Positions 741 to 15,696 of a stretch of DNA of 41,003 bases are shown piece after piece; position 1 is the stretch's first letter, and each line of letters opens with the position of its first letter. Origin of the DNA: a virus; the UHGV virus genome UHGV-0224761; one strand, given 5' to 3'. Position numbers and translations under genes: made by a program. The notes below the pieces were generated by a model. It did no database searches, was not told the origin of the DNA, and worked only from the letters and a program-made list of their open reading frames with translations.

Positions 741-916
741 TACCCTTAAAATCTTCTTCAAAACATCTTCAAACTGCCAAAATGCTCACATAATCGATCT
801 AACTATAATCAGTATGATAATCATCATGAATTACTATTCAATAGCGTGATTATCTTGGGATGAGTCATATGATCTCTATATGTATTTACAGCACCACCTC
901 ATGATAGCGATGGCGC

Positions 917-1684: not shown

Positions 1685-1951
1685 ATGAGGGTATCCAGAC
1701 AAGCATCGAATAATTTGTTTGTTCGAGAGGGGTGTGACTGGTCTGCTAAAGCGGTATATGCAGCCCTTGAAAACAAAGGCACAGACCTCCCTGAACTGGA
1801 AAGGGAGTTAGGATTAAAAAGCGGATCAATGCGCAATGTGTTTTACCGCCAGTGCCGTAAATACGAAGCCGCCATCGCCGAAAAAATAGGGGTTGAACCT
1901 GCTGTAATCTGGCCCAGCAGATACCAGGTGGACGCCAGAGAAGTGGCTTGA
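1685..1951 (+). CDS. ner: Ner-like DNA-binding regulator
   Basis: C-terminal ...PAVIWPSRYQ... matches the conserved Ner/Nlp signature; sits between the repressor and the transposase; RBS agagga upstream. Confidence 0.85.
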   Translation: MRVSRQASNNLFVREGCDWSAKAVYAALENKGTDLPELERELGLKSGSMRNVFYRQCRKYEAAIAEKIGVEPAVIWPSRYQVDAREVA

Positions 1952-1961
1952 TGGGGGATGT

Positions 1962-4052
1962 ATGTGGGTAACAGCAAAAGAATGTGTTGGTCTTCCTGAT
2001 TTACCAATGATGGAACATAACATTCGCCATCGACTCACAAAAGCAGCTGCGGGAAATGCAGCCATGTTACGCAAACGTAAGGGGACAAAAGCAATCGAAT
2101 TTAATATCGATTGTTTGCCTTCTGGCGCGCAACAAGTATTGCGTGAACGTTATGCCCTTCAACTGATGACGCAAAAAGCTGATGAATCACCGGCTCCGGT
2201 GGTGACAAAGGCCAGACGCTCATCTGCCGTGGTTGATGCGGTGGAGGCATATCGCGGATCACCACAACTGATGCTCGAACGCCTCAATGCCCTGACTGAA
2301 AACCAGCGCCAGGTGGCTGATGCACGAATCGCGATCGTCAGCGAAGTTCTGAAAGTCGCGCAACAACCTGGTTTCAGCTGTGCGAAGGCTATCCGGTTTA
2401 TCGTTGACAACCTGGCACGTTCGCAACTGGACGAGCGCATTGTGGCAATGGTTGAGACGGCGAACGCCAAAAAGGGAAACAGCCGTGCGTTGAGTGAAAT
2501 CACGCTGAAACGCTGGATTGCGGCCTTTAACAAGGCACAGAACGCCGCTGAACGCCTGCTTTTACTGGCACCGGGTAAACGCCAGGAAATAAAAGCCGAA
2601 GATATTAACTGGCTGCCCGAATTTCTGGCGCAGTATCGCCAGTCAAACGGCCGACCAATGACCGAGGCTTACGAGGATTTTGTTGCTGAATGGCAGCACC
2701 GGCACGCTGATGAGCCTTATATGCTCGATATCATGCCCTCTTATGACACCATTCGCCGCGCAATGAAGAAACTGCCGGAAGTGGTGAAACAAAAAGGCCG
2801 GGTAACTGGCAGTGAATACCGTCAGCTTGAGGGATTCACGCGCCGCGACTGGTCCAGAATGCCGGTGAATTATGTCTGGATTGGTGACGGTCACGGCATG
2901 AAGCTGAAATGCGCGCACCCGGTTCACGGGCGGCCATTCGCACCGGAAGTGACCTTTGTTATCGACGGTGGCACGCGCTTTGTGGTGGGCTGGAGCCTTG
3001 ACCTGGCTGAAAATGTTTTCGCCGTAGCCGGTGCCATACAGCACGGTATTCGCCATCATGGCAAACCGTTTCTGTATTACTCGGATAATGGCTCCGGGGA
3101 AACCGCCGACGTCCTGGATAAGGAGATTGTGGGGATACTGCCACGACTGGGGATTAATCACCCGACAGGGATTGCCGGTAATCCGCAGGGACGGGGCATT
3201 ATCGAACGGCTTAACCGCACATTACCGATGCGCATAGCCCGTAAATACCGCACCTATTTCGGGAAAGGAGCAGATCGCGAGACGTTACGTAAAACCAACC
3301 GCGATTTACGCTCGGCATTCAGTGCCCTGCAACAGGGCAAACGGCTGAACGCCCGGCAGCAGTCAGCGATGCGTGATTTACCGTCCTGGTCTGAACTGAT
3401 TGATGCCATTCGTGACGGTGTTGAGTGGTACAACAACCGGCCGCACGATGAATTACCCATGAAGCCGAACGGTAAACATTACAGCCCGGCGGAGTTCAGA
3501 AAAAAACGCCTGGCGGAAGAGGACACGGAAATTGAATGGCTGTCCGATGTTGAACTGCGGGATATGTTCCGGCCGATGGTGGAGCGCCCTGTAAGACGCT
3601 GTGAAATACGCTGGCTGAATAATATTTACTACGCGCCCGAGCTGCGTGACGAGCATGGCCGTAAGGTACTTATCAGCTATGACATTCATGATGCCGAACG
3701 AATTACCGTGCGCCGCCCGGATGGCAGCGTGATTTGCGAGGCGGTATGGGACGGCAATAAACGCGAAGCCTTCCCTGTCAGCGCGGAATACTACAAACAG
3801 CAGCAGCGCCTTAAAGGCATGCGTAAACGCGCAGAGGAAAAAATCCGTGATGCCGAGGATGAGGTTGTCAACGTGCTGGAGCACAAGCCGCAGGAGCCCT
3901 GGCTGGAAAACATATACCGCCCTGTGGGTAATACGGTGACCGTTCAGCAACCGGTCGCTGACGATGAACCTGATGAAGAATACGAGCGTAATTTCCAGCG
4001 GGGATTGCAACTGCTCGAAGCGAAATTAAAAGAAAGTGATCCGCTGGCCTGA
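1962..4052 (+). CDS. A: MuA-type DDE transposase
   Basis: 696 aa; N-terminus MWVTAKECVGLPDLP resembles the MuA N-terminus; central ...WIGDGHGMKL... DDE-core-like region; Mu position. Confidence 0.9.
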   Translation: MWVTAKECVGLPDLPMMEHNIRHRLTKAAAGNAAMLRKRKGTKAIEFNIDCLPSGAQQVLRERYALQLMTQKADESPAPVVTKARRSSAVVDAVEAYRGSPQLMLERLNALTENQRQVADARIAIVSEVLKVAQQPGFSCAKAIRFIVDNLARSQLDERIVAMVETANAKKGNSRALSEITLKRWIAAFNKAQNAAERLLLLAPGKRQEIKAEDINWLPEFLAQYRQSNGRPMTEAYEDFVAEWQHRHADEPYMLDIMPSYDTIRRAMKKLPEVVKQKGRVTGSEYRQLEGFTRRDWSRMPVNYVWIGDGHGMKLKCAHPVHGRPFAPEVTFVIDGGTRFVVGWSLDLAENVFAVAGAIQHGIRHHGKPFLYYSDNGSGETADVLDKEIVGILPRLGINHPTGIAGNPQGRGIIERLNRTLPMRIARKYRTYFGKGADRETLRKTNRDLRSAFSALQQGKRLNARQQSAMRDLPSWSELIDAIRDGVEWYNNRPHDELPMKPNGKHYSPAEFRKKRLAEEDTEIEWLSDVELRDMFRPMVERPVRRCEIRWLNNIYYAPELRDEHGRKVLISYDIHDAERITVRRPDGSVICEAVWDGNKREAFPVSAEYYKQQQRLKGMRKRAEEKIRDAEDEVVNVLEHKPQEPWLENIYRPVGNTVTVQQPVADDEPDEEYERNFQRGLQLLEAKLKESDPLA

Positions 4053-4125
4053 AATAAAAAAATAACCCGAGGGGTGACTCAGGTTATTTGAGGTTTCAGT
4101 CTCGGAGAATGCTGTCTCAAGCGAG

Positions 4126-5067
4126 GTGAATAATATGACCGATATTAACGATGTAATCAAGACCATTGATGAACTTATTGATGGCGGCGTACTGACGCAG
4201 TATGCCATCGCCAGAGAGGCGGGAATTTCCGACGGCACATTATCGGCTTTCCGTAAGGGAAAATATAAAGGCGATAACGCTGCTGTGGCTGCTTCCCTGC
4301 GCTCCTGGTATGAGAACTGGAATAAACAAAGCGCACTGCCGGAACCGCCGCAGTTTGTGGAAACTCAGACAGTCCAGGAGCTGCGCGCACTGTTTCAGGC
4401 GGTTCGCCTGATGGGCTGTATTAACGTTATTGTGGGCGTACCGGGTGTGGGTAAAACGGCCACTGCCCGTAATTACTGCCAGGAGCAACCAAACACCTGG
4501 ATGATCACCCTGTCACCCGCGCACTCCAGCGTCACGGAGTGTCTGCTGGAGCTGGCCGATGCGCTGGGGATTGATTACACCCGCGCGAACAAAGGGGCAT
4601 TATCCCGCGCCATCCGCCGTCGCCTGATGGGAACGCGTGGACTGGTGATTGTGGATGAGGCGGATCATCTTGGTATTGACGGTCTGGAGCAACTCCGGGC
4701 AATTCAGGACGCCACGGGGATCGGGATGGTGCTTATTGGTAACCCGCGCGGATTGTTTAAAGGTGGACGCCGCGCCTTTGATGATTTATCGCGCCTGTTC
4801 AGCCGTCTTGCCCGTACAAAACAACTTCGCAAGGCCAAAAAGGCGGATGTGCTGGCCATTGCCATGGCGTGGGGGATCAGTGGTGAGGCTGAGCTGGCCG
4901 TCATGCAGGCTATCGCTGAAAAGCCGGGAGCGTTACGCGTTCTGACACATACGCTTAACCAGGCGTGGCTCACCGCCAGCGGTGAAGGCGCGGCGCTGAC
5001 AGAAAAACATATTAATGCGGCCTTTAAAGAGGTTTATACCAACCCTGAATTACTCTCACAGGTGTGA
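4126..5067 (+). CDS. B: MuB-type AAA+ transposition target-DNA activator
   Basis: 313 aa; N-terminal HTH (ISDGTLSAFRKGKYKGDN), Walker A GVPGVGKT, Walker B VIVDEADHL; collinear with Mu B. Confidence 0.9.
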   Translation: MNNMTDINDVIKTIDELIDGGVLTQYAIAREAGISDGTLSAFRKGKYKGDNAAVAASLRSWYENWNKQSALPEPPQFVETQTVQELRALFQAVRLMGCINVIVGVPGVGKTATARNYCQEQPNTWMITLSPAHSSVTECLLELADALGIDYTRANKGALSRAIRRRLMGTRGLVIVDEADHLGIDGLEQLRAIQDATGIGMVLIGNPRGLFKGGRRAFDDLSRLFSRLARTKQLRKAKKADVLAIAMAWGISGEAELAVMQAIAEKPGALRVLTHTLNQAWLTASGEGAALTEKHINAAFKEVYTNPELLSQV

Positions 5068-5069
5068 TT

Positions 5070-5291
5070 ATGGCGGTATTTAATATTCCTGATATTTACG
5101 GACGCTTTTACCTGGTTAATTTCGATAACGTGAAGGTGATTTCACTGGCCGAAAATAAAGAATGTGGCGATTTACTTTTTGAATTTAATGACCGCACACG
5201 AATGGTGATATCTGCCGGACTTGATCGCGAAGGTGCGACAGAAGTTTACAGCGGAATATGCCGTTCTGTTGGTGCGAAACAAGTCAGCTAA
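5070..5291 (+). CDS. Hypothetical small early protein (kil position)
   Basis: ORF overlapping the B stop codon; assigned by position only. Confidence 0.4.
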   Translation: MAVFNIPDIYGRFYLVNFDNVKVISLAENKECGDLLFEFNDRTRMVISAGLDREGATEVYSGICRSVGAKQVS

Positions 5292-5303
5292 ATGAGGTGT
5301 TAT

Positions 5304-5558
5304 ATGAATATGCAATCCTGCGGTAACAAAATGAATTTATTCGACTCCCTGAACAGCGCGCGCCGTCTGACCGAACTTGCCGGTGCGGTACTGGAACGCA
5401 GTAAGCGCTATCCGCAACGTTTTGCACTGAAAACCACGCCGCCGGTAGGCAACGTGCAGGGAACCGGTGAAATTGAAATCACCATACAGACCAACGGCCT
5501 GCGCCGCCGTGTGAAGGCCACCCGCATCAGCGGCTGCACGGTTTACTGGGAGGTGTGA
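5304..5558 (+). CDS. Hypothetical early protein
   Basis: ORF with RBS gaggtg; compact early operon. Confidence 0.4.
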   Translation: MNMQSCGNKMNLFDSLNSARRLTELAGAVLERSKRYPQRFALKTTPPVGNVQGTGEIEITIQTNGLRRRVKATRISGCTVYWEV

Positions 5559-5559
5559 G

Positions 5560-5841
5560 GTGAAAAAAAATCTCATTGCATGGGCGTGGTCGAGTGGTCT
5601 TATTGAGTTTGGTTACGTCCTGCCGGAAGGTGCATTGCCGATAGTTGCCGGAAAGCCTGCCACGGTACGGCATGTGATTGAGGTTATGGCGCGTCATGGA
5701 CGTGATGAACAGGAGCAGTTACTGGTTCCGGGGATACCGGAAGCGGTGACGGAGGAAGAAGCCTTTAATGCCATGATTCGGTTCTGCCGTGAGGTTAGAC
5801 GCCGGGTCAGTTATCCAAACAGAACGAGGACCAGAGGATGA
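5560..5841 (+). CDS. Hypothetical early protein (GTG start)
   Basis: ORF with RBS ggaggtg; start codon overlaps the upstream stop. Confidence 0.4.
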   Translation: MKKNLIAWAWSSGLIEFGYVLPEGALPIVAGKPATVRHVIEVMARHGRDEQEQLLVPGIPEAVTEEEAFNAMIRFCREVRRRVSYPNRTRTRG

Positions 5842-6110
5842 GTAAAGTCGTACGCATTATTTTCGAATATAAGGAGCACGTTATCCATAAAAACGCTGAT
5901 GGAACAGTGCGCATGGGGGTAAGTCTGGACATACGTTCAACCGGGATAAAGCAGAAAGGTGATGGACCCGCCATGATTTTTGGGGTGGTTATGCTGGCAG
6001 AAAGCAGAAACTTCGCAGAGTTTGTGGCAATGAAAGCCAGTGCATTCATGAAAGACAGAGGCATGACTTCCGGGGTTATTAACGGTAATGAATTTAATCA
6101 ACAGGGGTAA
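5838..6110 (+). CDS. Hypothetical early protein, paralogue 1 (MSKVVRIIFEY...)
   Basis: ORF with RBS agagg; N-terminus similar to the next gene. Confidence 0.45.
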   Translation: MSKVVRIIFEYKEHVIHKNADGTVRMGVSLDIRSTGIKQKGDGPAMIFGVVMLAESRNFAEFVAMKASAFMKDRGMTSGVINGNEFNQQG

Positions 6111-6114
6111 TTCC

Positions 6115-6408
6115 ATGAGCAAAGTACGCGTTATTTTTGAATTTAATCATGTTTCGCATGACGAAAAGTTGGCAGGCAATGACTGTGTTGAAGTGCATGA
6201 AAAGATTGGAGTGGATGTGAAAACAGAACGTGATACGGATAACAGGCCGACGTCACTCTGTGACGTTTATGCAAGTATTCTCCAGTATCACAGTCCTGCA
6301 ATTATTCAGTTTCTCTCAGCGGAATTTCAGGCATCTGCACAGTCTTTTGGAGCGGATGCCATCATTAAACGCCACCGCGTGCATAAAGCATCAGGCACAC
6401 TGCAATAA
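6115..6408 (+). CDS. Hypothetical early protein, paralogue 2 (MSKVRVIFEF...)
   Basis: Internal ATG of the 6088 ORF gives an N-terminus paralogous to the preceding gene. Confidence 0.45.
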   Translation: MSKVRVIFEFNHVSHDEKLAGNDCVEVHEKIGVDVKTERDTDNRPTSLCDVYASILQYHSPAIIQFLSAEFQASAQSFGADAIIKRHRVHKASGTLQ

Positions 6409-6419
6409 GGAAAAACAAA

Positions 6420-6950
6420 ATGGCTAAACGCGTTACAAAATTAAAGGCCGCAGCCGAGGCGGCACCGCAGACCCGGGAAGAAGTCAGCCGTGATATCCGC
6501 ACCCTGGGAGATATTCAGCGAGAGGCGCTGCGCCTGGAAACGGCGATGAATGACGAAGTGGCAGAAATCACCGCCCGTTATACGCCGCAGATTGAAAATC
6601 TTAAAAAGCAAATCAAAGTGCTTTTTAAAGGGATTCAGGACTGGTGCAAAACCAACCGTGATGAGCTGACGAACGGCGGCAAAACCAAAACAGCCAATCT
6701 GACCACCGGAACGGTGTCATGGCGGCTGGGAACGCCATCATGCAGCGTCAGCCGTGATGTGGAAGGTGTGATTGAAATGCTGCGCCGTATGGGGCTTGAG
6801 CGTTTCATCCGCACGAAAGAGGAAGTGAACAAGGAAGCCGTCCTGGCGGAGCCGGATGCTGTGAAAGGCATTGCCGGTATCAAGGTGAATAAAGGCGCTG
6901 AAAGTTTTTATGTCGAGCCTTTTGAACAGGACGCCGGACTGAATAAATAA
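6420..6950 (+). CDS. gam: Gam host-nuclease inhibitor (Ku-like DNA-end-binding)
   Basis: 176 aa; ...GDIQREALRLETAMNDEVAEIT... and ...NRDELTNGGKTKTANLTTGTVSWR...RFIRTKEEVNKEA... closely parallel Mu Gam. Confidence 0.9.
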   Translation: MAKRVTKLKAAAEAAPQTREEVSRDIRTLGDIQREALRLETAMNDEVAEITARYTPQIENLKKQIKVLFKGIQDWCKTNRDELTNGGKTKTANLTTGTVSWRLGTPSCSVSRDVEGVIEMLRRMGLERFIRTKEEVNKEAVLAEPDAVKGIAGIKVNKGAESFYVEPFEQDAGLNK

Positions 6951-7095
6951 CACCGCATTAATCAATTAAATATCACTTCATTTTAATTATGGCGCTCGCG
7001 TCAGGGGACTGCTTGCGCCTGAAAACAGAAAATAAGGGTTAAGAAATATGAAATACGTTTATATCGTCATTAATAATGTGGTGGGGAAATAAATC

Positions 7096-7629
7096 ATGAT
7101 TGATGCAAAAGTGCTTGAAGGGGTTAAAAACTGGCTGCGTATTTATGGCCGCCTGACCTGCGGTGTACTGGCTGAAAAAATGAATATGCCGCCATCCTCC
7201 ATGGTTTATTTTCTGCGTGATGCGGTTGATGCAGGCGTGCTGACGGAATGTAACGGTTTTTATGATATTCCGCGCCCCCGCCCGGTGCAGCCGGTTCGTC
7301 GCAAATGCAGCCAGGAATCTGCGGCTGATGATGTTCAGTGGTGCAGCTTCAGAAAATCCCTGCCATGGATTGAGGGGCATGATATTCCGTCGATGGCGTG
7401 GGAATTTGCTCAGGGCGTTCTGACCTGTGAAACCGTTTATGTGGTGGCTGAAGTTGATGAGCAGGCCATGAAAGAAGGCGTGCCCCAGTTTGTGATGGCG
7501 TATATCGACATACGCCTGGGCGTCATTATCTGCGGTTTAAGCGGCTGGAATATCACTGAACATGTTCTGCGCTACCTGATTGTTGACCGGACAGCAGCGC
7601 CTGCCGGGATATCTGCGGAGGTGGCGTAA
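7096..7629 (+). CDS. Hypothetical early protein
   Basis: 177-aa ORF with RBS. Confidence 0.4.
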   Translation: MIDAKVLEGVKNWLRIYGRLTCGVLAEKMNMPPSSMVYFLRDAVDAGVLTECNGFYDIPRPRPVQPVRRKCSQESAADDVQWCSFRKSLPWIEGHDIPSMAWEFAQGVLTCETVYVVAEVDEQAMKEGVPQFVMAYIDIRLGVIICGLSGWNITEHVLRYLIVDRTAAPAGISAEVA

Positions 7630-8144
7630 TGTTCTTTAAAACATCAAACCCTTCCGCGCTGGCTGCGTGGCAAAAATACCAGCAGGACTGCCAGAAAGTT
7701 AAGGATGAGGCAAAACGCCTTGAGGCCGTGCTGAATGTTGCGTGCCGGTCGGTATTTGTATCCGGTATCAGTGGATTTTGCTTTAAGGGACTGCGTTTTA
7801 CGGAGGACAAATATCCTTTTCATCGCGACTTATGGCGAAAACCGACTGCGTCGAATGGCTGGAGCTGCACACCGCGCACATCACGTATCCCTAAAACCCT
7901 GCGTGTTGCCTCTGATGAACTGAACAGTCTGTGGCGTGAATATTCGCCCGTCACGTATGCCAGAACCGATGCGCTGTTGTTCTGGCTGGGTATTGATTTC
8001 TCGGCAATCCTGTTTGGCCCTGTGAAGTGGTTCTGCGTTGACGATGTGATTTACCTTCAGTGCGGCGTAAAACCCGCAAAACAGAAAATGACCGAAATAC
8101 TGTCTGATGAGTTTTATGCTGCTGAAAAGCGAGTCAGGGGGTGA
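7629..8144 (+). CDS. Hypothetical early protein
   Basis: 171-aa ORF, translationally coupled (start overlaps upstream stop). Confidence 0.4.
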   Translation: MFFKTSNPSALAAWQKYQQDCQKVKDEAKRLEAVLNVACRSVFVSGISGFCFKGLRFTEDKYPFHRDLWRKPTASNGWSCTPRTSRIPKTLRVASDELNSLWREYSPVTYARTDALLFWLGIDFSAILFGPVKWFCVDDVIYLQCGVKPAKQKMTEILSDEFYAAEKRVRG

Positions 8145-8147
8145 TGT

Positions 8148-8699
8148 ATGATGATTTTACAACCCATGGGGCGAAAAGGTCGCGCCCCCGCTCATGTCCG
8201 TCCGTGGACACCTGAAGAAGATGCGCTGCTGATTGCGCTTTATTCATCCCCCCCGGTTAAGGATATTGCTGCCAGAATAAAAAGAACTGTCTGGGCTGTA
8301 TATAACCGGACTGGTGTATTGCGCAGTTCATACCCGGAGTTACTGAAATATAAACACCCAAGATTTACACCTGATGAAGATAAGTTTATTCGAAAAAATG
8401 CCAGAGCAATGACCTGCCAGCAAATGGGAGAATATCTCGGACGTAATAAAGATTCTGTCAGATGTCGGGCAGGAATGATTGGTGCTGGATTAACAAAGTG
8501 CGGAGAGTTACGCCCCGGCACGCGCATATCTGATGATGATGTACGTCTTATACGTGCGCTGCGTGATTCCGATTACCCACGCCGTCTGTCATTCCGGGAA
8601 ATTGGCGAAAAGTTTGGAATATCTGAACATTCTGCTCACGCAGTTTATTACCGTCGCCGGACTGCCGAGGACGCTGTATTACGGGAGTTAACGCCATGA
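8148..8699 (+). CDS. Hypothetical protein with three tandem HTH-like repeats
   Basis: Three roughly 45-aa modules begin WTPEEDALL..., FTPDEDKFI..., ISDDDVRLI..., each followed by a helix-turn-helix-like stretch. Confidence 0.45.
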   Translation: MMILQPMGRKGRAPAHVRPWTPEEDALLIALYSSPPVKDIAARIKRTVWAVYNRTGVLRSSYPELLKYKHPRFTPDEDKFIRKNARAMTCQQMGEYLGRNKDSVRCRAGMIGAGLTKCGELRPGTRISDDDVRLIRALRDSDYPRRLSFREIGEKFGISEHSAHAVYYRRRTAEDAVLRELTP

Positions 8700-9025
8700 T
8701 AACGACCTTATTTGTTGAATCAGATGAACCTCTTGTGTGTGCCGCCGGAATGCCGCTCTGTGGCGGAACGCTGACCGGTGTTTATTTCGGGGATTTACGC
8801 GGTTATCCCTGGCATTCACTGAATGATGCTTTCCCACCTGATATGGAGGCTGTCGTGCTGATTGTTCAGTATGGTCACCGTCAGGAGCTGCGCATCGGCC
8901 ATATGGGGTATGAAGGCTTTTTTGTTGATGAAGAAACCGGAGCCTGCCTTGAAGATGAAGACGGACAGGTGACGCACTGGTGTCATATTTCGGCTTTACC
9001 GGAATTACGGGAGGTGAATGCGTGA
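8696..9025 (+). CDS. Hypothetical early protein
   Basis: 109-aa ORF, coupled start. Confidence 0.4.
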   Translation: MITTLFVESDEPLVCAAGMPLCGGTLTGVYFGDLRGYPWHSLNDAFPPDMEAVVLIVQYGHRQELRIGHMGYEGFFVDEETGACLEDEDGQVTHWCHISALPELREVNA

Positions 9026-9372
9026 GAAGTTATATTGATAATGAAAAGCTGGAGACAATAAGCGACTGTCTTAGCTTGCTGGCAAAAATCAAAGAAACTA
9101 TTGAAGAGATTAAATTTCAGCTTGAATACGCACCATGTGGCGATGATGCATGGCGTAATGCTGCCAGAAAAGCACTGGCTGTCTTTCAGAAACAACGCCG
9201 GGCTGTTGAATACCGCCTTGCTGTATTGCGCCAGGAGGAAAAGGAAAGAAATATAAGACGTCATGAACGCGTTAATGACTTCCTTGTTCGTGAATTAAAA
9301 GGGCGCGTGCCGGAGTCGGTATTTTTTGAATGTGAGGCTATAGCCCGTAGCAAAGCACTGGAAACAGATTAA
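9022..9372 (+). CDS. Hypothetical coiled-coil protein (GTG start)
   Basis: GTG start preceded by gggagg, overlapping the upstream stop; the track ORF 8980..9372 shares this frame. Confidence 0.4.
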   Translation: MRSYIDNEKLETISDCLSLLAKIKETIEEIKFQLEYAPCGDDAWRNAARKALAVFQKQRRAVEYRLAVLRQEEKERNIRRHERVNDFLVRELKGRVPESVFFECEAIARSKALETD

Positions 9373-9387
9373 GCAGGCTGGTGAATA

Positions 9388-9696
9388 ATGAGTATTGAAT
9401 TAAGATCGTCTTATGAATATCGCAAAATCCTTATCGCCGGAGGCATGAAACCGGAAGATGCAGAGAAATTCGTTTCTTTTATGGATAAAGAATGTGACAA
9501 GCGGGATATGCCAGAAATTATTATGGATGACATGATTCTGGATTCAGCCGTGGCGTTAAGTCCGTTATGGATTGTGCATACTCTTGCGGAAATAGCTAAA
9601 AGAAGTGACAAGCAGGCGGCTGTCGCCGCCCTGCGATTACTGGCTGAATTAAGTTGTTCAGTCAATCCCAATACGTTCTTTGACGAACCTGGTTAA
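9388..9696 (+). CDS. Hypothetical early protein
   Basis: 102-aa ORF with RBS. Confidence 0.4.
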   Translation: MSIELRSSYEYRKILIAGGMKPEDAEKFVSFMDKECDKRDMPEIIMDDMILDSAVALSPLWIVHTLAEIAKRSDKQAAVAALRLLAELSCSVNPNTFFDEPG

Positions 9697-10068
9697 CATT
9701 GATTTGGTAACTTCTTTAATTAGATCAAATGGTGCGTCTGTAAACTCCTTTTTGATTCTTTCAAGGATTGGTTTTTTTCTCAGGGCGTTAGCTAAATCAT
9801 GCCCCTGCTGGGTAAGCATAATGGGCGTGTTTCTGAAACCAACGCCCAGAGAATGGAAAAAGAAACCAATATATTTGGGTGTTTCTGACTGCATATCACC
9901 ATTAACAATTGAGCCATTATCAGCGAGAAGCATAAGATGAAAAACTTTTTTATCCTTTTCCTCTCCTTCTGCCTCAGCCATGCCCAGATCCTGTAGTGTA
10001 AGGAAAGGTGTTTCAGCATCCTGAAAAGTTGTGAGAATACTTAATACTTCATCGTAATCTATTTTCAT
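9658..10068 (-). CDS. Reverse-oriented hypothetical protein (moron candidate)
   Basis: 136-aa ORF on the opposite strand inside the otherwise unidirectional early operon; the locus is visibly AT-rich compared with its flanks; converges on the upstream gene with a 39-bp overlap. Confidence 0.5.
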   Translation of the reverse strand: MKIDYDEVLSILTTFQDAETPFLTLQDLGMAEAEGEEKDKKVFHLMLLADNGSIVNGDMQSETPKYIGFFFHSLGVGFRNTPIMLTQQGHDLANALRKKPILERIKKEFTDAPFDLIKEVTKSMLTRFVKERIGID

Positions 10069-10132
10069 ATCGATACCTTTAGTTTTATCCGGGCGGCGTT
10101 GCCATGCCGCCTGTTGTTACGGAGACACGATA

Positions 10133-10645
10133 ATGAATCGCGCTTCCCTGATTACCTTAATACATGTCGCAAAACGCGATCTACAGCTTGACCATGAGAC
10201 CTACACATCCGTACTACTGGCAGCCACCGGCAAACCCAGTTGCCGGGATATGTCACCGGATGAGTTATCCCGCGTGCTGGATGTTTTCAAAAAACGCGGT
10301 TTTAAAGTGCGTCAGAAGCCGGTTAACCGGGCCTTAAAACCGGGTACGGTGACCGCCAAAATTCGCGCCATCTGGAAGGTGATGCACCGGCAGGGCTTTA
10401 TCTCTGATGGCGGGGAAACAGCCCTTAACCGCTGGGTGAAATCGCAGACGGCCGCTCAGAACGGCGGCGAAGGTGTGGCTAACTGGCAGTGGCTGGAACA
10501 ACACCCCGCGCTGGCCTCTGATGTGCTGGAGCGTCTCAAACGCTGGCACCGCCGCAAGATGCTGGATGTGCTGGGGATGCCAGCGCGTACAGTGATGAGT
10601 TATGAGCGCGTTTGCAGGCTGTATGAAGAATCCTCCCCCTTTTAA
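10133..10645 (+). CDS. gemA: GemA-like protein (Mu gp16 / DUF1018-like)
   Basis: N-terminus MNRASLITLIHVAKRDLQLDHETY is typical of GemA/gp16-family proteins; sits just upstream of the Mor/C-family gene. Confidence 0.65.
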   Translation: MNRASLITLIHVAKRDLQLDHETYTSVLLAATGKPSCRDMSPDELSRVLDVFKKRGFKVRQKPVNRALKPGTVTAKIRAIWKVMHRQGFISDGGETALNRWVKSQTAAQNGGEGVANWQWLEQHPALASDVLERLKRWHRRKMLDVLGMPARTVMSYERVCRLYEESSPF

Positions 10646-10652
10646 CCCCAAA

Positions 10653-10680
10653 CCCCGCCACAGCGCGGGATTTTTATTTT
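10653..10680 (+). terminator. Rho-independent terminator after gemA
   Basis: GC stem cccgc...gcggg followed by atttttatttt. Confidence 0.6.
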
Positions 10681-10715
10681 AAACTTGCCCTGTGTAATGA
10701 TGACCGGAGGCGGGT

Positions 10716-11138
10716 ATGGCTGAAACACAGATGAGCATGTTTGGTGACAGCGAACAGCTGCACGCGCTGATTGACCGTCTGGATGATATTCCTGATGATG
10801 AGCTGAAAAAGAACTGGCCCGGCACGCTGCGGGACCTGGTTGATGTGATCAGTGCTGAACTGCACCGTCAGGGGATTGAACCTGCTCAGGCGGGAATGCT
10901 TGCCCGTAAGGTTGCAGCCGCACAGGCCGGGTACATGGGCGGGCGTGGTTATTATCTCCCGGTCGGTGAATCCCTTTTCACCGAACTGCGCAATAATGAA
11001 ATTTTTTCCCGCTGGAGCCAGGGCGAAAAAATTGAAACCCTGCGCCGCCACTACCAGATGTCAGAGACGCAGATTTACTCCGTTATCCGCAACCAGCGTC
11101 GCCTGCATCAGGAACGCACGCAGCCACGGCTTTTCTGA
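10716..11138 (+). CDS. mor: Mor/C-family transcriptional activator
   Basis: 140 aa; acidic N-terminus and C-terminal HTH (...ETLRRHYQMSETQIYSVIRNQRR...) resemble Mu Mor/C; sits between gemA and lys. Whether it is the Mor or the C equivalent cannot be resolved. Confidence 0.7.
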   Translation: MAETQMSMFGDSEQLHALIDRLDDIPDDELKKNWPGTLRDLVDVISAELHRQGIEPAQAGMLARKVAAAQAGYMGGRGYYLPVGESLFTELRNNEIFSRWSQGEKIETLRRHYQMSETQIYSVIRNQRRLHQERTQPRLF

Positions 11139-11209
11139 TATTCCGCAAATCCTGCCCACTTTTTCCCACGGTTACGCTGACTCAGAGAACACCATGAGAC
11201 AGCGTAACA

Positions 11210-11710
11210 ATGCCAAAACTCCCCGCACCCCTGCGTAAAAAGCTGATTGCCCTTGTTCTGGCCGGAGCCGGGACGTTCACCATTGCCACGCACTACACCG
11301 GCTACTGGGAAGGGAAAGAAAACACCACGTACATTGATCCCACCGGCACCCCCACCATCTGTTACGGCCATACCGGCCCGGATGTGAAACCGGGGATGAC
11401 AAAAACTGATGAAGAGTGTCTGGAGCTGCTGGAAAAGGACATGAAATGGGCCTTTGCGGCTATCGATCGTCATGTTCAGGTGCCGCTTACCCGTGGCCAG
11501 ACGGTGGCGCTGGCCTCCTGGATTTTCTGGGCCGGTGAAACGAACTTTCGCAACTCCACGCTCCTGCGCCTTATCAATGCCGGGCAGATGCCCGCGTCCT
11601 GTAAGCAGTATATCCGCTGGATTTATTCAAAGGGGGTAAAACTCCCCGGTCTTGAGGCCCGCCGTTCGGCGGATGAATGGTTATGTCGTTACGATTTGCC
11701 GAAAGTCTGA
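11210..11710 (+). CDS. lys: SAR endolysin (T4-lysozyme-like glycoside hydrolase)
   Basis: N-terminal weakly hydrophobic signal-anchor (LIALVLAGAGTFTIATHY) followed by a lysozyme catalytic E...D...T spacing (YWEGKENTTYIDPTGTPTICYGHT). Confidence 0.8.
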   Translation: MPKLPAPLRKKLIALVLAGAGTFTIATHYTGYWEGKENTTYIDPTGTPTICYGHTGPDVKPGMTKTDEECLELLEKDMKWAFAAIDRHVQVPLTRGQTVALASWIFWAGETNFRNSTLLRLINAGQMPASCKQYIRWIYSKGVKLPGLEARRSADEWLCRYDLPKV

Positions 11711-11822
11711 ACCGCTTCTGGCGACCGCTCATGATTGCGCTGCTGTGTGCCGTTGTGCTGCTGCGGGGTGTGCTGTGTCTGCGGTGAACAATCCCTTACC
11801 GGCCCTGATTGCCGGAGGCTGT

Positions 11823-12173
11823 ATGGCGGCGCTGGGGGTGATGAGCGTGCTGGCTGCCGTGGTATGGGGAATGCACCAGAAGACGCAGCGCCTTGAGGAC
11901 AATAATCATGTGCTTGTGCGTGAACGGGACGAAGCCCGTCTGGTGCTGGCAAACCAGCAACGCACCCTGCAACTCATTTCACAAATCAGCAAGGCGGCCA
12001 CGAATGAAAAACAGCAGAACATGCAGCACAGCGAGGAACAGCAGAGCATTGTCCGCCGGTCGCTGGCAACGGTGCCTGCGGCCTCTGTTCCTGTGCCTGA
12101 TGATGTGGCTGACCGGGTGCGGCGGGCCGTCTGTGAAATACGTGCCGGTGAAGCCGGTGCCGATCCCCGCTGA
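11823..12173 (+). CDS. Putative i-spanin (Rz-like)
   Basis: N-terminal transmembrane segment (MAALGVMSVLAAVVWG) then a charged coiled-coil-like periplasmic domain, immediately after the endolysin; start could instead be the GTG at 11784. Confidence 0.5.
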   Translation: MAALGVMSVLAAVVWGMHQKTQRLEDNNHVLVRERDEARLVLANQQRTLQLISQISKAATNEKQQNMQHSEEQQSIVRRSLATVPAASVPVPDDVADRVRRAVCEIRAGEAGADPR

Positions 12174-12375
12174 ATGGCTGGCTGACTGTCTGGTCCCTCC
12201 TGTGCCGCAGCCGTTCACATTTGGCGCATCGGTCACTTACAACCTGCAACTGCTGGCGGTGATTAAAAACTGCAACGTGGACAAGGCCAGCATCCGCCGT
12301 CTGGAGGCACAGCGACAGCATGAATTTACTGATATGGCCGGAACGACTGCTGTTCCGGCAGGAAAGACGAAGTAA
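12004..12375 (+). CDS. Putative o-spanin (Rz1-like lipoprotein) in the +1 frame over the i-spanin
   Basis: Lipobox LTG|C after a hydrophobic stretch, then a proline-rich mature region (GGPSVKYVPVKPVPIPAEW...PPVPQP); start codon uncertain. Confidence 0.5.
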   Translation: MKNSRTCSTARNSRALSAGRWQRCLRPLFLCLMMWLTGCGGPSVKYVPVKPVPIPAEWLADCLVPPVPQPFTFGASVTYNLQLLAVIKNCNVDKASIRRLEAQRQHEFTDMAGTTAVPAGKTK

Positions 12376-12385
12376 GGAAAAAGGT

Positions 12386-12613
12386 ATGGATGATTCAGAT
12401 TGTGCTCAGGCAGTCGTGGAGCGGGCAACAGAACGCGCCCTTTGTGACCGGCTGACACGTAAGCGCCGGGTGGCGGAGACACCGGGCAGGCGTGCATGCG
12501 CGGACTGCGGGGGTGACATTCCGGCCGCCCGTCTGGTTGCCGTGCCGGATGCCATCCGTTGTGTGAACTGCCAGAACATCATGGAGGCCGGTCATGTGGG
12601 TCAGTATCGTTAA
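12386..12613 (+). CDS. TraR/DksA-family C4 zinc-finger protein
   Basis: CADCGGDIPAARL...IRCVNCQ four-cysteine motif; internal ATG with RBS aggaaaaaggt. Confidence 0.7.
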   Translation: MDDSDCAQAVVERATERALCDRLTRKRRVAETPGRRACADCGGDIPAARLVAVPDAIRCVNCQNIMEAGHVGQYR

Positions 12614-12902
12614 AGATTATGTCGTGCCGATCCTGTCGGCCACGGCCACGGCCGGGGGGATCTTTATGGCGCTGATGCGCAAAACCTTTGTCCCCCGCGA
12701 GGCCTTTGAAAAACTCTCCGACCGGGTTGAGCGGGTGGAGAGCCGGATTTCCGGCCTGCCCACGCAGCAGGAGGTGAACAGACTCAATATCGAAATCACC
12801 ACCCTGCGCGGTGAGCTTAAGGCCACCAATGCCACCCTGAAATCCGTCTCCCACCAGAACGAACTGCTGCTGGAGCAGGCTGTAAGGAAAAAAACACAAT
12901 GA
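12594..12902 (+). CDS. Small membrane protein, possibly the Mu gp25 (releasin) equivalent
   Basis: Single N-terminal transmembrane helix then a coiled-coil region; located in the lysis/late-leader cluster. The releasin assignment is by position and topology only. Confidence 0.4.
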   Translation: MWVSIVKDYVVPILSATATAGGIFMALMRKTFVPREAFEKLSDRVERVESRISGLPTQQEVNRLNIEITTLRGELKATNATLKSVSHQNELLLEQAVRKKTQ

Positions 12903-13189
12903 GTGATTTCATTACTGAAGATCAGCGTCTTGTCATTCTGCGGTCGCTGGCGGATTACAACGGCGAACTGGGCGAATCCGTGCTTCAGGACTGCCTGGAT
13001 GATTACGGCCACCGTGTGTCCCGCGACACCGTTCACACCCACATTGCCTGGCTTGCCGAGCAGGGACTGGTGCGTAAGCGCACGCTTGTTAACGGTTATT
13101 TCATCGCTGAACTGACCGGCCGGGGTCAGGATGTGGCGGAAGGTCGTGCCACTGTTCCGGGTGTGAAGAAACCACGCGCAAGGGGGTAA
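12899..13189 (+). CDS. Hypothetical protein with winged-helix-like segment
   Basis: 96-aa ORF, coupled; ...SRDTVHTHIAWLAEQGLVRK.... Confidence 0.4.
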   Translation: MSDFITEDQRLVILRSLADYNGELGESVLQDCLDDYGHRVSRDTVHTHIAWLAEQGLVRKRTLVNGYFIAELTGRGQDVAEGRATVPGVKKPRARG

Positions 13190-13191
13190 CG

Positions 13192-13773
13192 ATGGATAAG
13201 CCAACGCGTGGCCGTGTACGCAAGGTGGATTTGCTCCCCGACAGCATCCGTAAGCCGCTGCTGGAAATGCTGCGTGAAAAACGCCTGACGCAGGTCCAGA
13301 TCCGCGAGGAAATCAACCGTCTGATCCGTGAAGCAGGTCTGCCGGAAGAGCAGCAGCTCTCACCGGCGGCCATCAGCCGGGAAGCCTCCCGTAATGAGCT
13401 GATTGCCCGTAATCTGCGTGATTTACGCGAGCAGACAAAAGCCATGATGGCCGAACTGGGGGATAAGCCGACCGGTGAAACCACGGCACTGATTCTGGAG
13501 ATGTCCCGTGCCCTGATGTACCGCCGTCTGCGTGCCGCCACCGAATCCCTGAACAGCGACAGCGATGTGGATATGCGCCTTATTAAGGACATCCTCCTGT
13601 CGGCACAGCGTGCAGAAAGTGCCGCCGAGCGCAGCATTAAGCGTGAAAAAGAAATCCGGGCCGCATTTGCTGAAGAGATGGCGAATGCGGTCACCGATGA
13701 GTTGCGCGGCGTGGATGGCATGAGCGAGCAGATCGAATTCCGTATCAGGCAGATGCTGCTGGGTAAGGCGTAG
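13192..13773 (+). CDS. Putative terminase small subunit (Mu gp27 / DUF3486-like)
   Basis: 193 aa, N-terminal ...RKVDLLPDSIRKPLLEML... resembles Mu-like gp27 proteins; lies upstream of the large terminase. Confidence 0.5.
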   Translation: MDKPTRGRVRKVDLLPDSIRKPLLEMLREKRLTQVQIREEINRLIREAGLPEEQQLSPAAISREASRNELIARNLRDLREQTKAMMAELGDKPTGETTALILEMSRALMYRRLRAATESLNSDSDVDMRLIKDILLSAQRAESAAERSIKREKEIRAAFAEEMANAVTDELRGVDGMSEQIEFRIRQMLLGKA

Positions 13774-13783
13774 GAGGTGAATC

Positions 13784-14032
13784 ATGGCAACAGATAACCG
13801 CTCACTGATGAGCAGTGCCCATCAGAAAGCATTCAGTCTTGCAACACAGTTACCTCCTGAAACCATAAAGGTATGTCGTGAGTTGACTGAACTCAGCATT
13901 GCCGGGGAAATATCCCTGGAACAACTGCATTCGCTGCTGGCAGAGGCTGCCACTGATGAGTTGAGCGGCGTGGACGTGATGACTGAAGAGCTTGAGTCCC
14001 GAATCAAAAGCATTCTGACAGGTAAAGCATGA
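13784..14032 (+). CDS. Hypothetical protein whose C-terminus repeats that of the preceding gene
   Basis: C-terminal ...ATDELSGVDVMTEELESRIKSILTGKA parallels ...AVTDELRGVDGMSEQIEFRIRQMLLGKA of 13192..13773. Confidence 0.45.
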   Translation: MATDNRSLMSSAHQKAFSLATQLPPETIKVCRELTELSIAGEISLEQLHSLLAEAATDELSGVDVMTEELESRIKSILTGKA

Positions 14033-15696
14033 TGAACAAAGCCAGAGAAACGTCGCCTTCACTGATGCAAATGACGCCTCCCCGCAAAATTGATCTGTCA
14101 GGTGAAAAAGCCCTGCTGGGCGTGGATGTGCCGGACAGCCTTGATTTGCCCGGTGATATGCCGGTGTTTCTGGATTATCAGGCCCGCTGGTTTGCAGATG
14201 AAAGTCAGGTCTGCATCGCGGAGAAATCCCGCCGCACCGGTCTTACCTGGGCGGAAGCCGGGCGTAACGTCATTACTGCTGCAAAACCGAAGCGTCGTGG
14301 TGGCCGCAATGTGTTTTATGTGGGATCAAAGCAGGAGATGGCGCTGGAATATATTTCTGCCTGCGCGCTGTTCTCCCGTGCCTTTAACCAGCTGGCAGAT
14401 GCTGATGTGTATGAGCAGACATTCTGGGATCGGGATAAAAAAGAAGAAATTTTGACCTACATGATCCGCTTTCCGAACAGTGGATTCAAAATTCAGGCAT
14501 TGTCTTCCCGTCCGTCAAACCTGCGCGGCCTTCAGGGGGATGTGGTGATTGATGAAGCCGCGTTCCACGAGTCACTGGATGAGCTTCTCAAGGCGGCAAT
14601 GGCGCTCACTATGTGGGGCGCGCGCGTGCGTATTATCTCCACGCATAACGGCGTCGATAATCTGTTTAATCAGTACATTCAGGAAGCCCGCGAGGGGCGC
14701 AAGGATTACAGCGTCCACCGCATAACCCTGGATGATGCCATTGCGGACGGGCTGTACCGTCGTATCTGTTACGTCACCGATCAGGAATGGTCACCGGAAA
14801 GCGAGCAGAAATGGCGTGATGTTCTCTACAAAAACGCCCCGACCCGTGAGGATGCCGACGAGGAATACGGCTGTATCCCGAAAAAATCCGGCGGTGCCTA
14901 TATCCCCCACGCGCTTATTGAAATGGCGATGATCCGCGACATCCCGATTCTGACGTTTGAAGCCCCGGACAACTTCATCAGCCGTGCCGCATGGCTGCGT
15001 GAATCGGAAGTTTTAACCTGGTGTGAAGAACATTTAAAACCGCTTTTAGAGAAATTAAATCCCCGTTCCCGCTTCAGCTTCGGGGAAGACTTTGCCCGCA
15101 CCGGTGACCTGTCCTGCTTTGTGCTGCTGGAAATCACCGAATCCCTGGCAAAGCGCGAGGTGTTTCGCGTGGAGCTGCGCAACCTGCCGTATGCCCAGCA
15201 GGAACAGGTGATGATGTACATCCTGACCCGCGTTCCGGCGCTGGTCGGTGCGGCGTTCGACGCCACCGGTAACGGCGGCTATCTGGCAGAGGCCGCACTG
15301 CTGGCCTTTGGCCCGGATATCATCGACTGCGTGATGTTGTCGCCGAAGTGGTACGGCGAGTGGATGCCAAAACTGAAAGCCGAGTTTGAAGATCAGAATA
15401 TCCTCGTCGCCCGCCATCAGACCACGCTTGATGATTTGCGCCATGTGAAGGTAGTGAATGGTATCCCGCAAATCGACAAGGGGCGCACGAAGGACCAGAA
15501 CGCAACGGCTGCGAACGCCCGCCGCCATGGTGATTTTGCCGTGGCGCTCTGTATGGCAAACCGGGCGTCATACATGGAGGGCTTCATCCTGGATGAATCA
15601 GCCTGTCAGGCGCTACCGGAGCGGTCGCGGGCAATGGAGGGCGGTTATCGTGATGACGATGAGGCATATCATGAATTTGATCGGGGGGGCTGGTAG
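14029..15696 (+). CDS. Terminase large subunit (Mu-like)
   Basis: 555-aa ORF immediately upstream of the portal gene; Walker-B-like VVIDEAAFHE; size and position match the Mu large terminase. Confidence 0.65.
   Translation: MMNKARETSPSLMQMTPPRKIDLSGEKALLGVDVPDSLDLPGDMPVFLDYQARWFADESQVCIAEKSRRTGLTWAEAGRNVITAAKPKRRGGRNVFYVGSKQEMALEYISACALFSRAFNQLADADVYEQTFWDRDKKEEILTYMIRFPNSGFKIQALSSRPSNLRGLQGDVVIDEAAFHESLDELLKAAMALTMWGARVRIISTHNGVDNLFNQYIQEAREGRKDYSVHRITLDDAIADGLYRRICYVTDQEWSPESEQKWRDVLYKNAPTREDADEEYGCIPKKSGGAYIPHALIEMAMIRDIPILTFEAPDNFISRAAWLRESEVLTWCEEHLKPLLEKLNPRSRFSFGEDFARTGDLSCFVLLEITESLAKREVFRVELRNLPYAQQEQVMMYILTRVPALVGAAFDATGNGGYLAEAALLAFGPDIIDCVMLSPKWYGEWMPKLKAEFEDQNILVARHQTTLDDLRHVKVVNGIPQIDKGRTKDQNATAANARRHGDFAVALCMANRASYMEGFILDESACQALPERSRAMEGGYRDDDEAYHEFDRGGW

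What the first reader, a model, noticed from the sequence alone, without database searches (positions are those of the whole stretch)
8148..8699. Early protein built from three tandem HTH-like modules
The 183-aa protein contains three repeats of roughly 45 aa (WTPEEDALL..., FTPDEDKFI..., ISDDDVRLI...), each followed by a helix-turn-helix-like stretch. A triple DNA-binding-module protein in the semi-essential early region could be a host-takeover or anti-defence regulator; I do not recognise the family.
Basis: seen in the sequence. Interest (0 to 1): 0.4.

Follow-up and report, generated by a model that had tools for sequence, protein, structure and literature searches.

The report
Triple Myb-like DNA-binding phage protein
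This early gene of a Mu-like E. coli prophage encodes a small basic protein made of three helix-turn-helix DNA-binding modules; it belongs to an already catalogued phage family that includes the DNA-binding protein D5 of phage T5 and gp9 of phage Mu, so it is a real but fairly ordinary find whose exact role is still untested.

Summary
The 183-aa ORF at 8148-8699 (+) is real. It lies in the early region of a Mu-like E. coli prophage, between gam and gemA/mor, and is translationally coupled to its neighbours.

The family is not unknown:
- It is PHROG 323, "transcriptional regulator, D5-like".
- NCBI names it SANT/Myb-like, or wrongly "AsnC family".
- It aligns colinearly with phage T5 protein D5, a DNA-binding protein needed for replication and late transcription.
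- It also aligns with the two-module Mu gp9.

Close relatives all sit in Mu-like prophages. Relatives at 35-47% identity sit in P2-like early operons, often next to DNA methylases.

The third, recognition helix of each module is the most variable part. Two old alleles of the gene core segregate among nearly identical prophages.

Best reading: an accessory early dsDNA-binding regulator of the D5-like kind. A host-takeover or anti-defence role is untested. I class it as a new member of a known kind, of modest interest.

The parts
8137..8141 (+). Shine-Dalgarno-like GGGGG, 6 nt upstream of the ATG at 8148. The stop of the upstream gp12-like gene (TGA 8142-8144) lies between them.
   Evidence: Sequence read.
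8148..8699 (+). CDS of the 183-aa, basic (pI 10.0, 35 K+R vs 22 D+E) triple-HTH protein, a D5-like / SANT-Myb-like family member.
8148..8198 (+). N-terminal arm (res 1-17). It is predicted disordered, but the sequence is conserved across Mu-like and P2-like members (consensus MILxPMGxPGKCPAH). Inferred to be a groove- or backbone-contacting arm.
   Evidence: Low pLDDT for residues 1-20. Invariant or near-invariant G11, P14, H16, P6, P10.
8199..8345 (+). Module 1 (res 18-66): Myb/GcrA-like three-helix HTH, with helices 22-31, 37-44 and 48-61.
8346..8507 (+). Module 2 (res 67-120): a repeat of module 1, with helices 75-84, 90-97 and 101-110. It ends in the conserved KCGD linker.
8508..8696 (+). 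Module 3 (res 121-183): a diverged homeodomain-like HTH, with helices 129-140, 149-156 and 160-169 plus a C-terminal helix 173-181. It is the most conserved part of the family and its signature.
8238..8640 (+). Core of the gene that exists as two old alleles. Nucleotide identity is 57-85% here against 92-100% in the flanks.
8696..8699 (+). ATGA overlap of this gene's stop with the start of the next early gene (109 aa, 8696-9025). This indicates translational coupling.
7629..8144 (+). Upstream neighbour, a Mu gp12-like protein (PHROG 2314). It is the constant left neighbour of the gene in the Mu-like loci whose fetched stretch reaches upstream of the gene.

Best explanation
**Shown.** The gene encodes a small, strongly basic protein made of three consecutive three-helix HTH domains of the homeodomain-like (Myb/SANT/GcrA-DBD) kind, preceded by a conserved N-terminal arm. 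It belongs to the phage family PHROG 323, which also holds T5 D5 (three modules plus an extra N-terminal part) and Mu gp9 (two modules). It sits inside the early operon of a Mu-like prophage and is translationally coupled to its neighbours.

**Inferred mechanism.** After induction the protein is made with the other early proteins and binds double-stranded DNA. Helix 3 of each module enters successive stretches of the major groove, as in c-Myb R2R3 and the GcrA DNA-binding domain. A conserved Arg at the turn before helix 3 and another in mid-helix 3 of modules 1-2 hold the backbone (R46/R54 and R99/R107). In module 3 the conserved residues lie at the end of helix 3 and just after it (Y167, R170). 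The N-terminal arm adds contacts. Three modules would cover roughly 15-20 bp.

The helix-3 positions between the conserved arginines are the most variable in the family, and two old alleles persist. I therefore think binding is sequence-selective and differs between variants.

**Inferred role, by analogy with T5 D5.** The protein is an accessory modulator of the phage's own programme: replicative transposition, or the early-to-middle transcription switch and early shut-off. I do not think it is an essential factor. Its position in the region that is dispensable in Mu, and its absence from Mu itself, fit that view.
For: **Fold and repeats**
- hhalign between modules: 99%, 94.7% and 87.5%, with clean reversed-profile controls.
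- AF2 mean pLDDT 86.3, three helix triplets.
- Family profile against PDB sequences: c-Myb 4.8e-6, B-Myb 2.7e-5, v-Myb R2R3 5.2e-5 over profile positions 18-103.
- hhalign of modules 1 and 2 against the GcrA DBD: 94% and 95%.

**Family**
- PHROG 323: this protein E 7e-51, T5 D5 1.2e-71, Mu gp9 5e-29.
- hhalign of the family against T5 D5: 96.7%, E 3.6e-10, 144 columns spanning all three modules.
- Plain tblastn of T5 D5 against the window hits 8202-8657, E 3e-5.
- hhalign of the family against Mu gp9: 98.3%, E 2.4e-14.
- The T5 GenBank note calls D5 a DNA-binding protein required for replication and late transcription and involved in shut-off. The 1979 J Virol title is cited in PMC12630848.

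**Charge.** pI 10.0, net about +13.

**Early-operon position**
-.
- No promoter or terminator signal above chance.
- Every locus fetched lies in an early operon of a temperate phage: 42 Mu-like and 24 P2-like (20 from the viral-contig scan, 4).

**Recognition-helix variability.** Mean column entropy is 2.5-2.8 bits for helix 3 of each module against 1.0-1.7 for helix 1. R46, R54, R99, R107, Y167 and R170 are invariant or nearly so.

**Selection.** dN/dS is about 0.2 in modules 2-3.
Against: - No DNA-binding, expression or phenotype data exist for this protein or for Mu gp9 (no papers found).
- T5 D5 shares only about 25% identity, is near-neutral (pI 6.3 against 10.0) and has an extra N-terminal region. 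Transfer of function from it is weak.
- High variability of helix 3 could simply reflect surface exposure.
- SANT-type domains can mediate protein-protein rather than DNA contacts.
- The Pfam Myb score of this protein is below the gathering threshold (20.4 against 24.4 bits).
- No candidate binding site was identified.
Confidence: 0.6

Rival explanations
1. Host-takeover or anti-defence factor. The protein binds host DNA or a host or defence protein, to reprogramme host transcription or block an immunity system. The allelic diversity would then reflect an arms race.
For: - It lies in the accessory early region, where Mu keeps host-directed functions such as kil and gam.
- Two old alleles of the gene core segregate among otherwise 92-100% identical prophages.
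- Module 1 shows dN/dS 0.5-0.8 with flank-like dS.
- The gene has moved between unrelated temperate phage types, Mu-like and P2-like.
Against: - No PADLOC match, although PADLOC covers defence systems, not anti-defence proteins.
- The only characterised relative acts on phage replication and transcription.
- dN/dS in modules 2-3 is about 0.2, which means purifying rather than diversifying selection. The high dS (about 1) points to exchange of old alleles, not rapid adaptive change.
Confidence: 0.17
2. Reader of methylated DNA in the manner of GcrA. The modules recognise Dam- or other methylase-marked sites and couple phage gene expression or replication to the methylation state.
For: - hhalign of modules 1 and 2 against the GcrA DBD gives 94-95%.
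- In the P2-like prophages that carry a Dam-like methylase next to the gene, the methylase lies directly upstream in 6 loci (overlapping the gene in four of them) and directly downstream in one. A Dcm-like methylase or a PAPS reductase follows the gene in others.
- GcrA reads m6A through pockets in helix 3 (PMC5887438).
Against: - The GcrA residues that read bases and methyl groups (R33, N34, I37, G38, R42) align to V48/W49/Y52/N53/V57 in module 1 and K101/D102/R105/C106/M110 in module 2. They are not kept. Only the backbone contact K39 is matched, by R54/R107.
- Those positions are the most variable in the family.
- In Mu-like prophages the gene has no methylase neighbour.
- The GcrA sigma-interacting domain is absent.
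Confidence: 0.08
3. RNA-polymerase- or protein-binding adaptor. The HTH-like bundles act as SANT-type or sigma-region-4-like protein interaction modules, for example competing with sigma-70 region 4, rather than binding DNA.
For: - Weak Pfam cross-hits to Sigma70_r4, HTH_23 and related families in module 3 of this protein and in relatives.
- Helices 1-2 of module 3 and the C-terminal helix are the most conserved parts, as expected for a fixed partner surface.
Against: - The matches to sigma factors are generic HTH cross-hits with high rmsd.
- The strongly basic charge and the conserved Arg residues at HTH positions that contact phosphates in GcrA fit DNA binding.
- T5 D5 is annotated as a DNA-binding protein.
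Confidence: 0.07

Closest known systems
Phage T5 protein D5 (T5.118, 255 aa), namesake of PHROG 323
   Same: Same PHROG family. It aligns colinearly over all three modules (hhalign 96.7%, E 3.6e-10; tblastn E 3e-5). Both are early phage genes. D5 is annotated as a DNA-binding protein needed for replication and late transcription.
   Different: About 25% identity. D5 has about 70 extra N-terminal residues and a C-terminal Ala/Lys tail. It is near-neutral (pI 6.3 against 10.0). It is essential in a virulent phage, whereas this gene sits in a dispensable region of a temperate transposable phage. Whether this protein has any of D5's functions is untested.
Phage Mu gp9 (Mup09, formerly E8, 99 aa)
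   Same: Same PHROG family. It aligns to modules 2 and 3, including the linker (hhalign 98.3%, E 2.4e-14). It also lies in the Mu early region and is also basic (pI 9.3).
   Different: Two modules rather than three, and no N-terminal arm. It sits before gam, not after gp12. Mu has gp13 and gp14 where this gene sits, and the window phage has no gp9-like ORF. No study of gp9 was found in the library.
Eukaryotic Myb R2R3 DNA-binding domains (c-Myb, B-Myb, v-Myb; Pfam PF00249)
   Different: Only the first of the three signature tryptophans is kept (W20; F73 and I126 in modules 2 and 3). The Pfam score of this protein is below threshold. It is a bacterial or phage lineage. The third module is of the Hin/Tc3-like kind.
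GcrA DNA-binding domain (Caulobacter; PDB 5yiu)
   Different: There is no sigma-interacting domain, and the m6A- and base-reading residues are not conserved. This protein has three modules where GcrA has one. No Pfam GcrA hit.
Archaeal CRISPR-repeat-binding protein Cbp2 (PDB 2lvs)
   Same: A small protein made only of tandem HTH modules joined by a linker. Profile hit 9.4e-5 over profile positions 29-112. The GcrA DBD also hits it.
   Different: Two modules, an archaeal chromosomal gene, and a target (CRISPR repeats) that has nothing to do with this setting.

Membership tests
PHROG 323 (T5 D5-like transcriptional regulators) | Significant full-length match to the family profile | tested here: met
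   E 7e-51, residues 2-182 on profile positions 80-256 of 319. T5 D5 scores 1.2e-71 and Mu gp9 5e-29 against the same profile.
PHROG 323 (T5 D5-like transcriptional regulators) | Colinear homology to T5 D5 itself across the HTH modules | tested here: met
   hhalign 96.7%, E 3.6e-10, query 18-171 against D5 72-232. tblastn E 3e-5.
PHROG 323 (T5 D5-like transcriptional regulators) | N-terminal region of D5 (about 70 aa, profile positions 1-79) | tested here: not met
   The match starts at profile position 80. This protein has only a 17-aa arm before module 1.
PHROG 323 (T5 D5-like transcriptional regulators) | Binds double-stranded DNA and affects phage replication and late transcription | not testable with these tools
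   Known only for T5 D5, from its GenBank note and the reference cited in PMC12630848.
Myb/SANT domain (Pfam PF00249 / PF13921) | Score above Pfam's gathering threshold | tested here: not met
   20.4 bits against 24.4 for PF00249, and 16.2 against 22.9 for PF13921. Many relatives at 42-62% identity carry precomputed PF00249 hits. Multi-copy relatives score 140 bits.
Myb/SANT domain (Pfam PF00249 / PF13921) | Three-helix bundle of about 50 aa with an HTH formed by helices 2-3, in tandem copies | tested here: met
Myb/SANT domain (Pfam PF00249 / PF13921) | Three regularly spaced tryptophans forming the core of each repeat | tested here: not met
   Only W20 is kept in module 1. In the alignment to c-Myb the second and third Trp positions are aliphatic. 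Modules 2 and 3 start with F73 and I126.
GcrA family (Pfam PF07750) | N-terminal DNA-binding domain fold | tested here: met
GcrA family (Pfam PF07750) | Base- and m6A-reading residues R33, N34, I37, G38, R42 | tested here: not met
   They align to V48/W49/Y52/N53/V57 (module 1) and K101/D102/R105/C106/M110 (module 2).
GcrA family (Pfam PF07750) | C-terminal sigma-70-interacting domain with a CCCH zinc motif | tested here: not met
   No Pfam GcrA hit at E up to 10. The protein ends after module 3 and is all-helical.
AsnC/Lrp family (the name NCBI gives the 73%-identical relatives) | AsnC-type HTH above threshold, plus a C-terminal RAM/AsnC ligand-binding domain | tested here: not met
   HTH_AsnC-type scores 17.7 bits against a cutoff of 27. 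No C-terminal AsnC domain is hit. The model has no beta strands. The name is a misnomer derived from a weak HTH cross-hit.

The most novel reading that the evidence does not exclude
The two old alleles, and the variable recognition helices, could encode different DNA specificities used for discrimination between related prophages or against host defence. For example, an allele-specific factor might mark or protect the phage's own DNA, or silence a competitor. Alternatively, the protein could read phage-specific DNA modification, given its methylase neighbours in P2-like phages. Either reading would make the D5-like family a programmable three-module DNA-recognition system of temperate phages rather than a generic regulator.
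Probability: 0.1. Interest if true: 0.6.

Novelty: new member of a known kind. Interest (0 to 1): 0.3.

Why it matters
It ties together three poorly understood phage proteins as one family of tandem Myb/GcrA-like HTH arrays: T5 D5 (classic genetics, and none of the PDB searches here returned it), Mu gp9 (no study found), and this widespread enterobacterial prophage protein. That yields a testable structural model for how D5-type proteins bind DNA. It also corrects the misleading 'AsnC family' label carried by relatives that stand for at least about 1,700 database sequences (157 + 1,547 in the two largest clusters). And it flags a naturally dimorphic gene in Mu-like prophages that would suit allele-swap experiments. 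It does not reveal a new kind of system.

Tried and rejected
- **Single-sequence self-alignment.** Not significant. Profiles were needed.
- **NCBIfam.** No hit.
- **PADLOC.** No hit for the gene or for six neighbours.
- **PHROGs for the neighbours.** All are families of unknown function.
- **Genome-contig scan.** One irrelevant Verrucomicrobia locus only.
- **Literature.** Nothing found on this protein, on Mu gp9 or on PHROG 323. The 1979 T5 D5 paper and the Davison review are not held.
- **Own promoter or terminator.** Counts are at or below the shuffle expectation.
- **GcrA-type m6A reading.** Rejected on residue conservation.
- **AsnC/Lrp membership.** Rejected.
- **Second D5/gp9-like gene in the window.** None.
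- **Antisense ORFs inside the gene** (for example 8240-8527, minus strand). Treated as spurious, because codon-level selection fits the + frame.
- **Search for a distal DNA site that co-varies with the allele.** Not attempted. Mor and gp16 identities track the allele class only loosely.

Full report
**1. The observation**

A GGGGG stretch at 8137-8141 lies 6 nt before the ATG. The upstream gene stops at 8142-8144. The stop codon of this gene overlaps the ATG of the next one (ATGA, 8696-8699). Simple promoter and terminator scans of 5000-11500 find no more sites than shuffles do. The gene therefore looks like an internal, translationally coupled member of a long operon.

The repeats are not statistically visible in the single sequence. 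The best off-diagonal local alignment scores 28, against 25.1 +/- 3.9 in shuffles (p about 0.2). Only the short WTPEEDALL/FTPDEDKFI motif reaches p about 0.01. With profiles cut from a 55-sequence family alignment the picture changes:
- module 1 (14-66) vs module 2 (67-120): hhalign probability 99.0%, E 3.8e-18
- module 2 vs module 3 (121-183): 94.7%, E 6e-8
- module 1 vs module 3: 87.5%
- six reversed-profile controls: P 0.14-0.77

HMMs of modules 1 and 2 detect each other (i-E 9e-8 and 3e-5) but not module 3.

AlphaFold2 on a 39-sequence alignment gives mean pLDDT 86.3. It predicts three helix triplets (22-31/37-44/48-61, 75-84/90-97/101-110, 129-140/149-156/160-169) and a last helix at 173-181.

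The period is 53 aa. The acidic motif is helix 1 of each module. Module 3 is a distant relative of the other two.

**2. Where it sits**

The window is a Mu-like prophage of E. coli. Window 2128-21402 is 99.2% identical to a prophage in E. coli AF39. That prophage is annotated with transposase, AAA ATPase (MuB), Kil, Gam, Mu-gp12 family, this protein, gp16 (GemA-like), Mor, lysis and head genes. Further on come tail genes, an invertase, com and mom. The gene therefore lies in the equivalent of Mu's semi-essential early region, between gam (6420-6950) and gemA/mor.

The region occurs in 232 of 5426 complete E. coli genomes. PGAP calls the 98%-identical protein WP_000977058.1 'SANT/Myb-like DNA-binding domain-containing protein'. 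It calls the 73%-identical allele 'AsnC family protein'.

**3. What family it is**

- *Pfam.* Only sub-threshold hits: Myb_DNA-binding 20.4 bits against a cutoff of 24.4 at residues 19-32, and several HTH families at 130-165.
- *NCBIfam.* Nothing.
- *PHROGs.* A strong match to phrog_323, 'transcriptional regulator, D5-like' (E 7e-51).
- *T5 D5.* The name comes from phage T5 protein D5. T5.118 matches the same PHROG at 1.2e-71. It aligns with this family over 144 columns covering all three modules (hhalign 96.7%, E 3.6e-10). Plain tblastn of D5 against the window hits 8202-8657 at E 3e-5. The T5 record describes D5 as a DNA-binding protein required for DNA replication and late transcription and involved in shut-off. 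The 1979 J Virol paper on it is cited in PMC12630848, but I could not read it.
- *Mu gp9.* Mu gp9 (Mup09, E8, 99 aa) also belongs to PHROG 323 (5e-29) and aligns to modules 2-3 (98.3%, E 2.4e-14). Mu has no three-module gene after gp12; it has gp13 and gp14 there. Conversely, the window phage has no gp9-like ORF.

**4. Fold**

- The family profile hits c-Myb (4.8e-6), B-Myb (2.7e-5), v-Myb R2R3 (5.2e-5, profile 18-103) and the tandem-HTH CRISPR-repeat-binding protein 2lvs (9.4e-5) by sequence.
- Whole-chain Foldseek against the PDB is not significant, which is expected for linked small domains.
- Against predicted viral structures there are 28 matches at E <= 1e-3. They include Goslar proteins, a 'D5 protein' of a Vibrio phage, and endonuclease fusions.
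- An exhaustive HMM search finds 9752 proteins at E <= 1e-3. Many are long proteins with 4-9 tandem copies of the module 1-2 unit. One example is a helicase followed by nine near-identical copies, which scores 140 bits on Pfam Myb.

The modules are thus the bacterial and phage branch of the Myb/SANT/GcrA-DBD homeodomain-like fold.

**5. Membership limits**

- *Canonical Myb.* It is not one. Only the first of the three signature tryptophans is kept, and the Pfam score is below threshold.
- *GcrA.* It is not GcrA. The sigma-interacting domain is missing. The residues that read bases and the m6A methyl groups (R33, N34, I37, G38, R42; PMC5887438) align to V48/W49/Y52/N53/V57 and K101/D102/R105/C106/M110. 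Only the phosphate contact K39 is matched, by the invariant R54 and R107.
- *AsnC/Lrp.* It is not a member. There is no RAM domain and no beta structure.

**6. Distribution and evolution**

Among the 63 loci returned by a viral-contig scan, the 42 whose copy is at least 58% identical are all Mu-like. Wherever the fetched stretch reaches upstream, the gp12-like gene is the left neighbour. The 20 loci whose copy is 35-47% identical are all P2-like, with the gene upstream of the replication gene A. One further locus matched only 43 residues and was not classified.

Look-ups of two more distant homologues gave four more P2-like loci, with the gene between cox and gpA. In six of these P2-like loci a Dam-like methylase lies directly upstream, overlapping the gene in four of them. 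In one a Dam-like methylase lies downstream, in one a Dcm-like methylase, and in two a PAPS reductase.

Within the Mu-like prophages the gene exists as two alleles (about 96-99% and about 70-74% protein identity to the window). The flanking genes stay 92-100% identical, while nucleotide identity drops to 57-85% between about 8238 and 8640.
- In modules 2-3, dS is about 0.9-1.3, against 0.07-0.26 in the flanks, with dN/dS about 0.2. These are old alleles moved by recombination and kept under purifying selection.
- Module 1 has flank-like dS but dN/dS of 0.5-0.8.

Across the family, helix 3 of every module is the most variable element (mean entropy 2.5-2.8 bits). Helix 1 (1.0-1.7 bits), helices 1-2 of module 3, the KCGD linker and the C-terminal helix are conserved. 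The N-terminal arm is conserved too.

**7. Most likely mechanism**

*Shown:* a basic (pI 10.0) three-module HTH protein of the D5-like family, encoded in an early operon.

*Inferred:*
- It binds dsDNA with the third helix of each module in the major groove.
- The conserved Arg residues and the N-terminal arm hold the backbone.
- The variable helix-3 positions give sequence preference that differs between variants.
- By analogy with T5 D5, it modulates the phage's own replication or the early-to-later transcription switch, as an accessory function.

I put about 0.6 on this composite. The DNA-binding part alone I would put near 0.85, and the specific role nearer 0.4.

*Rivals:*
- a host-directed or anti-defence factor (0.17)
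- a methyl-DNA reader (0.08, weakened)
- a protein-binding adaptor (0.07)

**8. Verdict**

The family is already catalogued and has one classic characterised relative. The finding is therefore a new member of a known kind, with modest interest (0.3). What this analysis adds is the link between T5 D5, Mu gp9 and this protein as tandem Myb/GcrA-like arrays, the correction of the 'AsnC' label, and the allele dimorphism.

Noticed in passing
window 8238-8640: The core of the gene occurs as two old alleles among otherwise near-identical Mu-like prophages. Nucleotide identity is 57-85% here against 92-100% in the flanks. dS is about 1 against 0.07-0.26, with dN/dS about 0.2.
   Followed up: partly
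window 8187-8345 (module 1): Between the two allele classes, module 1 has flank-like dS (0.16-0.26) but raised dN (0.12-0.15), giving dN/dS 0.5-0.8. This could be relaxed or adaptive change next to the recombination boundary.
   Followed up: no
window 1-2128: The repressor/ner end does not match the prophage that is 99.2% identical over 2128-21402. It encodes a 203-aa HTH repressor-like ORF (917-1528, minus strand) and a Ner-like ORF (1685-1951). It looks like a swapped immunity module.
   Followed up: no
window 9658-10068 (-): A minus-strand gene (DUF2513 by PGAP, PHROG 585) sits inside the plus-strand early operon.
   Followed up: no
window ~18600-18679 (= L001 23001-23080, -): PGAP annotates a 'tRNA-OTHER' here in the near-identical prophage, but ARAGORN finds no tRNA or tmRNA anywhere in the window.
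   Followed up: partly
L004 7045-9547; L005; L049-L053: In P2-like prophages the homologue is flanked by DNA-modification genes. A Dam-like methylase lies directly upstream (overlapping the gene in L004, L005, L051 and L052). A Dcm-like methylase follows in L050, and a PAPS reductase follows in L004 and L051.
   Followed up: partly
P0126 and other long hits; T5.108 in L072 4546-7332: Proteins of 258-1115 aa carry 3-9 tandem copies of the same module. One example is a helicase followed by nine near-identical copies. The T5 'replication origin binding' protein is likewise annotated with a SANT/Myb domain plus a helicase domain. In mycobacteriophages the tblastn matches to the module fall on or next to genes annotated as HNH endonuclease and DNA methylase.
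   Followed up: no
PMC8624392 (Yersinia phage phiR2-01): The D5 homologue of a T5-like phage was among the most abundant proteins in virion preparations, unlike in T5. This is consistent with an abundant DNA-bound protein.
   Followed up: no
L002/L003 8531-9163 and 17 other P2-like loci: An ORF of about 205 aa with odd composition directly follows the homologue in 18 of the 22 P2-like loci examined. It was called as a Phage_ASH gene in one record and not called in another. It may be a miscalled frame or a non-coding element upstream of gpA.
   Followed up: no
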